In this document: in pieces, positions 18,197-20,166 of the stretch
How positions within the stretch are numbered: position 1 is the first letter of the stretch
Layout: every line of letters starts with the position of its first letter
Assembly: GCF_009914755.1 (NCBI RefSeq)
Contig: NC_060931.1
Source: the human T2T-CHM13v2.0 reference genome, Homo sapiens
DNA length: 64,000 nt
Direction: 5' to 3' (one strand)
Program-made: the position numbers and the translations under genes
The notes under the pieces: model-generated
What the model saw: only the letters and a program-made list of their open reading frames with translations
The model's database searches: none
Told to the model about the DNA's origin: nothing

Positions 18197-20166
18197 TATG
18201 GTTGTGTTTTCTTTTTTTTTTTTTTAATTTATAAACTTTATTTAAACTTTATTTTTTTTTTCTTTTATCCGTAAACTTCTTTTTTTTTTTTTTTTTTATT
18301 ATACTCTAAGTTTTAGGGTACATGTGCACATTGTGCAGGTTAGTTACATATGTATACATGAGCCATGCTGGTGCGCTGCACCCACTAATGTGTCATCTAG
18401 CATTAGGTATATCTCCCAATGCTATCCCTCCCCCCTCCCCCGACCCCACCACAGTCCCCAGAGTGTGATATTCCCCTTCCTGTGTCCATGTGATCTCATT
18501 GTTCAATTCCCAGCTATGAGTGAGAATATGCGGTGTTTGGTTTTTTGTTCTTGCGATAGTTTACTGAGAATGATGGTTTCCAATTTCATCCATGTCCCTA
18601 CAAAGGATATGAACTCATCATTTTTTATGGCTGCATAGTATTCCATGGTGTATATATGCCACATTTTCTTAATCCAGTCTATCATTGTTGGACATTTGGG
18701 TTGGTTCCAAGTCTTTGCTATTGTGAATAGTGCCGCAATAAACATACGTGTGCATGTGTCTTTATAGCAGCATGATTTATACTCATTTGGGTATATACCC
18801 AGTAATGGGATGGCTGGGTCAAATGGTATTTCTAGTTCTAGATCCCTGAGGAATCGCCACACTGACTTCCACAATGGTTGAACTAGTTTACAGTCCCACC
18901 AACAGTGTAAAAGTGTTCCTATTTCTCCGCATCCTCTCCAGCACCTGTTGTTTCCTGACTTTTTAATGATTGCCATTCTAACTGGTGTGAGATGATATCT
19001 CATAGTGGTTTTGATTTGCATTTCTCTGATGGCCAGTGATGATGAGCATTTCTTCATGTGTTTTTTGGCTGCATAAATGTCTTCTTTTGAGAAGTGTCTG
19101 TTCATGTCCTTCGCCCACTTTTTGATGGGGTTGTTTGTTTTTTTCTTGTAAATTTGTTTGAGTTCATTGTAGATTCTGGATATTAGCCCTTTGTCAGATG
19201 AGTAGGTTGCGAAAATTTTCTCCCATGTTGTAGGTTGCCTGTTCACTCTGATGGTAGTTTCTTTTGCTGTGCAGAAGCTCTTTAGTTTAATTAGATCCCA
19301 TTTGTCAATTTTGTCTTTTGTTGCCATTGCTTTTGGTGTTTTGGACATGAAGTCCTTGCCCACGCCTATGTCCTGAATGGTAATGCCTAGGTTTTCTTCT
19401 AGGGTTTTTATGGTTTTAGGTTTAACGTTTAAATCTTTAATCCATCTTGAATTGATTTTTGTATAAGGTGTAAGGAAGGGATCCAGTTTCAGCTTTCTAC
19501 ATATGGCTAGCCAGTTTTCCCAGCACCATTTATTAAATAGGGAATCCTTTCCCCATTGCTTGTTTTTCTCAGGTTTGTCAAAGATCAGATAGTTGTAGAT
19601 ATGCGGCATTATTTCTGAGGGCTCTGTTCTGTTCCATTGATCTATATCTCTGTTTTGGTACCAGTACCATGCTGTTTTGGTTACTGTAGGAGGGAAAACC
19701 CCATCGTCTCAGCCCAAAATCTCCTTAAGCTGATAAGCAACTTCAGCAAAGTCTCAGGATACAAAATCAATGTACAAAAATCACAAGCATTCTTATACAC
19801 CAACAACAGACAAACAGAGAGCCAAATCATGGGTGAACTCCCATTCACAATTGCTTCAAAGAGAATAAAATACCTAGGAATCCAACTTACAAGGGATGTG
19901 AAGGACCTCTTCAAGGAGAACTACAAACCACTGCTCAAGGAAATAAAAGAGGACACAAACAAATGGAAGAACATTCCATGCTCATGGGTAGGAAGAATCA
20001 ATATCGTGAAAATGGCCATACTGCCCAAGGTAATTTACAGATTCAATGCCATCCCCATCAAGCTACCAATGACTTTCTTCACCGAATTGGAAAAAACTAC
20101 TTTAAAGTTCATTTGGAACCAAAAAAGAGCCCGCATTGCCAAGTCAATCCTATGGTTGTGTTTTCT
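18197..20166 (-). mobile_element. L1HS Ta-1, 5'-truncated and 5'-inverted, with 3' transduction
   Basis: 16-bp TSD tatggttgtgttttct at 18197-18212 and 20151-20166. 3'UTR reads GATGAC-ACA-TTAG and CTTAGAGTAT (Ta). CCCAAATGAGTAT (Ta-1). Uninterrupted ORF2 C-terminus at 18503-19609. Inverted ORF2 piece at 19694-20150. Confidence 0.97.
18503..19689 (-). pseudogene. L1 ORF2p C-terminal remnant (Cys-rich domain; no EN or RT core; non-autonomous)
   Basis: ORF ...[22 protein letters not shown]...[18 protein letters not shown]...RIFSLIAGN*. Confidence 0.93.

What the first reader, a model, noticed from the sequence alone, without database searches (positions are those of the whole stretch)
18212..18297. 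54-nt 3'-transduced tag between two poly(A) tails of the L1HS: a barcode for its source element
Seen: on the element strand the L1 3'UTR ends ...CTTAGAGTATAAT-A18. It continues with non-L1 sequence GAAGTTTACGGATAAAAG-A10-TAAAGTTTAAATAAAGTTTATAAATT (18279-18226), then a second A14 and the TSD. Two AATAAA hexamers lie in the tag, one about 22 nt before the distal tail. Known: this layout is the signature of L1 3' transduction, where transcription reads through the weak L1 poly(A) signal. Inference: the tag's start should be the donor's own 3' TSD and flank. The internal A10 may record two successive transduction rounds, i.e. a multi-generation lineage.
Basis: partly seen in the sequence, partly recalled or inferred. 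Interest (0 to 1): 0.8.

Follow-up and report, generated by a model that had tools for sequence, protein, structure and literature searches.

The report
Two-generation L1 transduction tag, confirmed
A truncated young human L1 retrotransposon carries two short stowaway sequences behind its tail that trace its ancestry through two earlier L1 copies on chromosomes 5 and 18, both missing from this genome; this is a tidy but ordinary example of a well-known process.

Summary
On the minus strand the order is L1 3' end, A18, an 18-nt tag, A10, a 26-nt tag, A14, then a 15-16-nt target-site duplication (TSD).

The element is a 1.86-kb L1HS Ta-1 copy with a 5' inversion of the twin-priming kind.

Tag 1 (18 nt) follows an A18-A21 tail in four other L1HS copies of this genome: chr7:71.4 Mb, chr4:14.7 Mb, chr6:17.3 Mb and chr2:112.9 Mb. 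Its native, single-copy origin is chr5:141.63 Mb, which holds no L1 here. Its first 13 nt are the TSD of that missing chr5 progenitor and the next 5 nt are chr5 flank. The chr7:71.4 Mb copy looks like the source. It is in fact an offspring that carries both TSD copies: a 16-nt 5' transduction and a 601-nt 3' transduction.

Tag 2 (26 nt) has one exact match elsewhere in the genome, at chr18:22,581,317, again with no L1. It ends 11 nt after an AATAAA.

The best reading is two successive short 3' transductions, from chr5 (or a sibling) to chr18 to chr7:132.0 Mb. The kind is well known, and multigenerational cascades are in print. I did not find this lineage in print, and it is not AC002980, RP or LRE3.

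The parts
18197..18211 (-). 3' copy of the target-site duplication, GAAAACACAACCATA. The A at 18212 may belong to it, which would make it 16 nt.
   Evidence: Identical to 20151-20165.
18212..18225 (-). Terminal poly(A) tail, A14, of the RNA that made this insertion.
18226..18251 (-). Tag 2: 26 nt transduced from chr18:22,581,317-22,581,342 (CHM13). This is the inferred 3' TSD and flank of an intermediate L1 that this genome lacks. It contains an AATAAA (18242-18237) that ends 11 nt before the tail.
   Evidence: The only other exact match in the genome is on chr18; the control gave 0. The chr18 sequence continues AAACTTC, so the cleavage point is ambiguous by 3 A's.
18252..18261 (-). A10: the inherited genomic poly(A) tail of the inferred chr18 intermediate. 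Together with the TAAA that follows, it forms a second AATAAA (18253-18248), which ends 22 nt before the distal tail.
   Evidence: Siblings with tag 1 end in a tail at this same point: A25 in chr4, A15CA8 in chr6.
18262..18279 (-). Tag 1: 18 nt from chr5:141.63 Mb. The first 13 nt are the progenitor's TSD and the last 5 nt (AAAAG) are chr5 flank.
18280..18297 (-). A18: the inherited genomic poly(A) tail of the chr5 progenitor.
   Evidence: The siblings carry A19, A21, A21 and A21 at the same place.
18298..19689 (-). L1HS Ta-1 body in direct orientation. It covers roughly L1 positions 4627 to the 3' end: the ORF2 C-terminal part and the 3' UTR.
   Evidence: 99.4-99.5% identical to the full-length chr7:71.4 Mb copy. 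ACA diagnostic present. T and G at 5535/5538. 401-codon open frame at 18503-19708 on the minus strand.
19690..19693 (.). 4-nt junction between the direct and inverted segments. About 58 nt of L1 (roughly 4569-4626) are missing here.
19694..20152 (+). Inverted 5' segment of the same L1 (roughly L1 positions 4110-4568), with a twin-priming-type layout. Its last 2 nt overlap the TSD.
   Evidence: 99.6% identical to the full-length copy in reverse orientation. Weak match to the end of RVT_1 on the + strand: E 3e-4, 21 bits, below the 29.6-bit cutoff.
20151..20166 (-). 5' copy of the target-site duplication (AGAAAACACAACCATA).

Best explanation
The 54 nt record two successive short 3' transductions in one L1HS Ta-1 lineage.

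Round 1. A full-length L1 sat at chr5:141.63 Mb (CHM13 coordinates) with TSD AAAGAAGTTTACGGAT. CHM13 carries the empty allele. This L1, or a sibling with the same flank, was transcribed through its own poly(A) signal and its roughly A20 genomic tail. The transcript was cleaved 18 nt into the flank. That RNA inserted at chr18:22,581,317, at the edge of an AT-rich 30-bp tandem repeat.

Round 2. The chr18 copy, also absent from CHM13, was transcribed through both inherited tails. Cleavage came 26 nt into the chr18 flank, downstream of two AATAAA hexamers. One of these is created by the junction of the tail with the TAAA of the target. This RNA integrated at chr7:132,016,197-211 by target-primed reverse transcription with a 5' inversion. 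It gave a dead-on-arrival 1.86-kb copy flanked by a 15-16-nt TSD.

Shown here: the layout, the origin of tag 1, the sibling copies, and the unique chr18 match.

Inferred: that an L1 once sat at chr18, and which copy was the round-1 donor.
For: Layout and TSD:
-.

Element identity:
- 99.4-99.6% identity to full-length copies.
- ACA and Ta-1 diagnostics, using the rule quoted in the PMC12350158 Methods.

Tag 1:
- 5 of the 6 exact genome-wide matches of the 19-mer lie behind an L1HS tail.
- The first-tail lengths are alike: 18, 19, 21, 21 and 21.
- The chr5 site has the sequence once, with no L1. It is continuous with 604 nt that match the chr7:71.4 Mb flank at 602 of 604 positions.
- In chr7:71.4 Mb that block ends in A16 plus the TSD (AAA)GACACTG. 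The same TSD precedes a G and a 16-nt copy of the chr5 TSD in front of the L1. The direction is therefore chr5 to chr7.

Two rounds:
- The chr4 copy ends with tag 1 plus A25. The chr6 copy ends with tag 1 minus its last G plus an A-rich tail. RNAs ending at that point therefore did insert.
- Tag 2 has one exact match elsewhere in 3.1 Gb, against 0 for the control.
- In chr18 it is followed by AAA and contains an AATAAA 11 nt before its end.
- It starts where the top strand reads TT|TAAA. This is one base off the L1 endonuclease preference, which I recall and did not test.

Precedent:
- A cascade with two tags from two loci, and reference 'proxy' copies of absent sources, are described in PMC13009371, section 10.
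Against: - No L1 is seen at chr18:22,581,317 or at chr5:141.63 Mb in CHM13.
- Neither site appears as an insertion in the held part of the MEI table of the 1,019-genome long-read study (PMC12350158 supplement 2, stored cut). I searched by TSD letters and by CHM13 position. The neighbouring chr18 rows are at 22,574,652 and 22,631,333. The intermediate is therefore inferred, not observed.
- With up to 2 mismatches, the 26-mer is no more frequent than its reversed control: 4 matches against 3. Only the exact match carries weight.
- The chr18 flank belongs to a repeat family with more than 3,400 candidate copies.
- The inferred chr18 nick site would leave a terminal A rather than T on the primer.
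- L1-body variants are few and conflicting. Site 5345 joins chr4 with chr6, site 5660 joins the window copy with chr2, and site 5808 joins chr4 with chr2. Parentage among the copies is unresolved.
Confidence: 0.85

Rival explanations
1. There was only one transduction round (tag 1). The A10 plus 26 nt plus A14 were added in one of two other ways. Either the reverse transcriptase began on a polyadenylated chr18-derived RNA and switched after 26 nt to the tail of the tagged L1 RNA. Or a separate, extremely 5'-truncated retrocopy of such an RNA landed later in the L1's tail.
For: No L1 is present at the chr18 site in CHM13 or in the held part of the 1,019-genome table. An A-rich TSD from a second event would be invisible inside a poly(A) tail.
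Against: - It needs an independent germline transcript of an intergenic tandem repeat that ends at exactly this site. An upstream L1 explains such a transcript without further assumptions.
- The 26 nt begin at a TT|TAAA step that fits an L1 insertion site. A random truncation or switch point need not do so.
- Tag 1 followed by a tail is a proven insertion-competent RNA end in this lineage.
- Two-tag cascades are documented.
Confidence: 0.08
2. The round-1 donor of tag 1 was the full-length chr7:71.4 Mb copy present in this genome, not the missing chr5 progenitor. This rival concerns the donor only. It does not question the two rounds.
For: It is the only full-length L1 in CHM13 in which the same flank continues well past the 18-nt tag, for 601 nt.
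Against: - It is itself an offspring of chr5.
- In the last 2 kb it has three private changes: C at about 4670, A at about 5569, and a 2-bp deletion near 5744 that shortens ORF2 to 1255 codons. It has a fourth in the transduced block. None is shared by the window, chr4, chr2 or chr6 copies.
- At the one informative flank site, the chr2 copy carries the chr5 allele.
- All these changes could postdate the event, so the rival is weakened, not excluded.
Confidence: 0.15
3. The tag is a decayed or expanded poly(A) tail (A-rich microsatellite evolution) and carries no source information.
For: The tag is AT-rich. AAGTTTA occurs three times in it.
Against: - Tag 1 is identical in four other L1 copies and at a native single-copy chr5 site.
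- Tag 2 is identical to chr18 over all 26 nt.
- The three A-runs are pure.
Confidence: 0.01

Closest known systems
L1 3' transduction, as catalogued in lineage studies (Goodier 2000, Pickeral 2000, Szak 2003, Macfarlane 2013). I know these from recall and from the reference list. The last two were not held.
   Same: Read-through of the weak L1 poly(A) signal. A non-L1 tag between two poly(A) tails and inside the TSD. The tag is shared by sibling copies and maps to the source flank.
   Different: Both tags are very short (18 and 26 nt). Neither source is present in the assembly.
Multigenerational transduction cascade and 'proxy elements' (PMC13009371, section 10, read).
   Same: The insertion keeps the first tag from the grandparent and adds a second tag from the intermediate. 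A reference copy that carries the transduced flank stands in for an absent true source. That paper also reports that 71% of the transductions it detected in colorectal tumours are under 100 bp, and that two poly(A) tails are usual.
   Different: - That cascade ended in a somatic tumour insertion, and its members were observed. Here all steps are germline and old, and two of the three ancestors are missing.
- The stand-in at chr7:71.4 Mb is full-length, not truncated. It also carries a 16-nt 5' transduction.
The AC002980, RP and LRE3 transduction lineages (tags printed in PMC4866827).
   Same: All are Ta-family L1 lineages defined by a 3' tag.
   Different: None of the three tags occurs in the window, even with up to 3 mismatches. 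This is a different lineage.
Twin priming, i.e. 5'-inverted L1 insertions. The mechanism is recalled. PMC12350158 counts 1,047 such 5' inversions.
   Same: An inverted 5' segment abuts a direct 3' segment of the same L1. There is a small loss at the junction (about 58 nt) and one TSD around the whole.
   Different: Nothing unusual.

Membership tests
L1HS Ta-1 subfamily | ACA at L1 positions 5929-5931 (Ta). T and G at 5535/5538 (Ta-1). Rule as given in the PMC12350158 Methods. | tested here: met
   ACA is present in the window copy and in all four siblings. T and G are in register in all five; the chr7:71.4 Mb copy is shifted by its 2-bp deletion.
L1HS Ta-1 subfamily | Near-identity to full-length L1 copies that encode ORF1 and ORF2. 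| tested here: met
   99.4-99.6% over 1,431 + 459 nt to the chr7:71.4 Mb copy, which has a 338-codon ORF1 and a 1255-codon ORF2.
Insertion by target-primed reverse transcription | A perfect TSD around the whole insert, a terminal poly(A) tail, and an A-rich start of the TSD. | tested here: met
   15-16-nt TSD, A14, and a target that reads CTT|AGAAAA.
L1 3' transduction | Non-L1 sequence between the L1's own tail and a second tail, inside the TSD. | tested here: met
L1 3' transduction | The tag maps to unique DNA immediately 3' of a full-length source L1. | tested here: inconclusive
   - Tag 1 is native at chr5 with no L1 there. It follows full-length L1s at chr7:71.4, chr4 and chr2, and these are offspring.
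- Tag 2 has a unique chr18 match but no L1 there in CHM13.
L1 3' transduction | A poly(A) signal 10-30 nt upstream of the tag's end. | tested here: met
   Tag 2: AATAAA hexamers end 11 and 22 nt before the tail. Tag 1: only the L1's own AATAAA, about 40 nt upstream, is canonical.
Multigenerational cascade | Two tags from two different loci, in order, separated by a poly(A) run. | tested here: met
   chr5-derived tag, A10, chr18-derived tag.
Multigenerational cascade | The intermediate element is observed at the second locus. | tested here: not met
   Absent from CHM13. Absent from the held part of the 1,019-genome MEI table. Other assemblies could not be searched.
AC002980 / RP / LRE3 lineages | Presence of the lineage-specific tag. 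| tested here: not met
   0 matches in the window for each tag, with up to 3 mismatches. Tags taken from PMC4866827.

The most novel reading that the evidence does not exclude
Both ancestors in the chain are 'ghost' source elements: the chr5:141.63 Mb progenitor and the chr18:22.58 Mb intermediate. They are absent from T2T-CHM13 and were not found in the held part of a 1,019-genome long-read insertion table. They may survive only as nested tags in their fixed, dead offspring.

On this reading the locus is a small fossil record of an extinct, or very rare, Ta-1 source lineage. That lineage fired at least five times, with cleavage at about +13 to +18, +127 and +601 nt. At least once it started transcription 16 nt upstream of the element, or was read from further upstream.
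Probability: 0.4. Interest if true: 0.45.

Novelty: new member of a known kind. Interest (0 to 1): 0.3.

Why it matters
It gives a worked example of how very short transductions (18 and 26 nt) can rebuild a three-step L1 pedigree from one complete assembly. Short-read callers usually score such insertions as plain L1 (PMC13009371).

It also shows two traps. The obvious 'source' in the reference, chr7:71.4 Mb, is itself an offspring. The true sources are empty sites in the reference. For source-element catalogues, this lineage would be misassigned or missed.

The insertion lies between TSGA13 and KLF14. No effect on either gene is implied by anything seen here.

Tried and rejected
Literature and earlier notes:
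- Text search of the paper library for the tag letters found 0 papers.
- Macfarlane 2013 and Szak 2003 could not be read. I cannot say whether this reference-genome lineage is listed there.
- The TIGER paper (PMC4862182) has nothing on these loci in its main text.

Supplements:
- The supplements of PMC9311842 and PMC7026601 could not be read.
- In the supplements of PMC8647825, 9 files were searched and 1 was not. There were no tag letters.
- In PMC12350158 supplement 2, which is stored cut, there was no row by TSD letters or by CHM13 position for chr5, chr18, chr7:71.4 or chr7:132.0. Its sheets 19-20, on transductions and sources, were not in the held text. A block of reference-MEI deletions may also be missing. 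Whether the window copy is polymorphic therefore stays open.

Searches for more lineage members in this genome:
- One-mismatch variants of the tail+tag pattern gave 0 L1-linked hits out of 7.
- Queries with the chr5 flank beyond the 604-nt block and with the chr18 flank beyond tag 2 found no further near-identical copies.

Other:
- Building a pedigree from L1-body variants failed, because there are too few sites and they conflict.
- Tail decay is rejected.

Full report
**What is there.**
The window is T2T-CHM13 chr7:131,998,001-132,062,000. Read on the minus strand, the region holds these pieces in order:
- an L1 3' end (...CTTAGAGTATAAT, ending at 18298)
- A18 (18297-18280)
- GAAGTTTACGGATAAAAG (tag 1, 18279-18262)
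- A10 (18261-18252)
- TAAAGTTTAAATAAAGTTTATAAATT (tag 2, 18251-18226)
- A14 (18225-18212)
- GAAAACACAACCATA (18211-18197)

The last 15 nt recur at 20165-20151, with a preceding A that makes 16 nt. They form the target-site duplication of the whole insert. Because the tag lies inside the TSD, it came in with the L1.

**The element.**
- Against a full-length copy found later, the insert aligns as a direct segment (window 18298-19689, roughly L1 position 4627 to the end, 99.4-99.5%).
- It also aligns as an inverted segment (19694-20152, roughly L1 positions 4110-4568, 99.6%).
- Four unaligned bases lie between the two segments, and about 58 nt of L1 are missing. This is the twin-priming layout, a mechanism I recall.
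- The inverted piece gives a weak match to the end of RVT_1 on the + strand: E 3e-4, 21 bits, below the 29.6-bit cutoff.
- The copy has the ACA triplet, and T and G at 5535/5538. The PMC12350158 Methods define these as Ta and Ta-1.
- It has 4 private substitutions in about 1,890 nt. It is therefore not brand new, but the counts are too small to date it.

**Origin of tag 1.**
A whole-genome search with the 86-nt finding hit four other places. A 19-mer spanning tail and tag has 6 exact matches. Five of them are L1HS Ta-1 copies in which tag 1 follows an A18-A21 tail:

| Copy | L1 length | First tail | What follows the first tail |
|---|---|---|---|
| window (chr7:132.0 Mb) | 1.86 kb, 5'-inverted | A18 | tag 1, A10, tag 2, A14 |
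| chr7:71.4 Mb | full length | A19 | 601 nt of flank, then A16 |
| chr4:14.7 Mb | full length | A21 | tag 1, then A25 |
| chr6:17.3 Mb | 0.92 kb | A21 | tag 1 without its last G, then A15CA8 |
| chr2:112.9 Mb | full length | A21 | 127 nt of the same flank, then A20 |

The sixth match, chr5:141,632,507-522 on the minus strand, has no L1. The sequence stands there once, embedded in 604 nt that match the chr7:71.4 Mb flank at 602 of 604 positions.

In chr7:71.4 Mb that block ends in A16 followed by GACACTG. The same (AAA)GACACTG stands 5' of the L1, followed by one G and a 16-nt copy of AAAGAAGTTTACGGAT. The chr5 block has neither a tail nor a TSD.

The chr7:71.4 Mb element is therefore an offspring of an L1 that sat at chr5. 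It carries both copies of the parent's TSD, through a 16-nt 5' transduction and a 601-nt 3' transduction. CHM13 has the empty chr5 allele.

**Origin of tag 2.**
- The 26-mer has exactly one other exact match in 3.1 Gb, at chr18:22,581,317-342. The reversed-pattern control gave 0.
- With up to 2 mismatches it is no more frequent than the control, 4 matches against 3. Only the exact match counts.
- The site is the irregular last unit of a 7-copy, 30-bp AT-rich tandem repeat. That repeat lies inside an interspersed repeat with more than 3,400 candidate copies.
- No L1 lies there in CHM13.
- The match begins where chr18 reads TT|TAAA and ends where chr18 continues AAA. An AATAAA ends 11 nt before that point. 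A second AATAAA is created by A10 plus TAAA and ends 22 nt before it.

**Mechanism.**
The innermost tag is the oldest, so the order of events is as follows.
1. An RNA from the chr5 progenitor, or from a sibling with the same flank, was cleaved 18 nt past its genomic tail.
2. It inserted at chr18.
3. The chr18 copy was transcribed through both tails and cleaved 26 nt into its own TSD and flank.
4. That RNA inserted at chr7:132.016 Mb with a 5' inversion.

The chr4 and chr6 copies show that RNAs ending at the tag 1 point do insert. A two-tag cascade and reference 'proxy' copies of absent sources are in print (PMC13009371, section 10). The same paper reports that 71% of the transductions it detected are under 100 bp.

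The chr18 L1 is an inference. Which copy was the donor in round 1 is also an inference. The chr7:71.4 Mb copy has three private changes in its last 2 kb and one in the flank that no other member shares. The chr2 copy carries the chr5 allele at the one informative flank site. This favours chr5 but does not exclude chr7:71.4 Mb. Informative body sites conflict: 5345, 5660 and 5808 each join a different pair.

In CHM13, none of the 3 full-length members has both reading frames at full length:

| Copy | ORF1 (codons) | ORF2 (codons) |
|---|---|---|
| chr7:71.4 Mb | 338 | 1255 |
| chr4:14.7 Mb | 304 | 1133 |
| chr2:112.9 Mb | 338 | in pieces |

**Results against, and limits.**
- The chr18 and chr5 elements are not seen in CHM13.
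- They are also not in the held part of the MEI table of the 1,019-genome study, whether searched by TSD letters or by position. The neighbouring chr18 rows are at 22,574,652 and 22,631,333.
- That file is stored cut. Its transduction and source sheets were not held.
- A template switch, or a second tiny retro-insertion into the tail, could also place a chr18-derived 26-mer there. I rate this at about 8%.

**Comparison and novelty.**
- This is a textbook 3' transduction lineage with a second generation.
- It is not one of the three classic lineages. Their tags are absent from the window.
- The tag letters occur in no paper of the searchable library.
- Szak 2003 and Macfarlane 2013 could not be read. 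An earlier listing of the reference members therefore cannot be excluded.
- I file it as a new member of a known kind, of modest interest.
- Its points of note are that both tags are very short, that both ancestors are missing from the assembly, and that the apparent source is itself a doubly transduced offspring.

Noticed in passing
L010 (G000:C7:71419000-71427500), chr7:71,420,173-71,426,858: A full-length L1HS Ta-1 carries both a 16-nt 5' transduction and a 601-nt 3' transduction from chr5:141.63 Mb. The 5' transduction is its parent's 5' TSD copy, preceded by one extra G. The whole insert is flanked by the TSD (AAA)GACACTG. Its ORF2 is cut to 1255 codons by a 2-bp deletion.
   Followed up: yes
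L025 (G000:C5:141630000-141639500), chr5:141,631,919-141,632,522: The empty (pre-integration) allele of the lineage's progenitor. The TSD sequence is present once, with no L1. No offspring carrying flank beyond the 604-nt block was found in this genome.
   Followed up: yes
window 19694-20152: The 5' part of the L1 is inverted, with a twin-priming layout and about 58 nt lost at the junction.
   Followed up: yes
window 17148-17904: Three short stretches are 71-75% similar to L1 ORF2-region sequence, on the same strand as the L1HS. They look like an old L1 remnant next to the young insertion.
   Followed up: partly
window 18071-18109: A (TTG)8 run followed by (TTTTTG)-type repeats lies about 90 nt from the insertion site.
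   Followed up: no
L007 1324-1539 (chr18:22,581,140-22,581,355): A seven-copy 30-bp AT-rich tandem repeat, each unit holding an AATAAA. It lies inside an interspersed repeat with thousands of copies. Tag 2 is its irregular last unit.
   Followed up: partly
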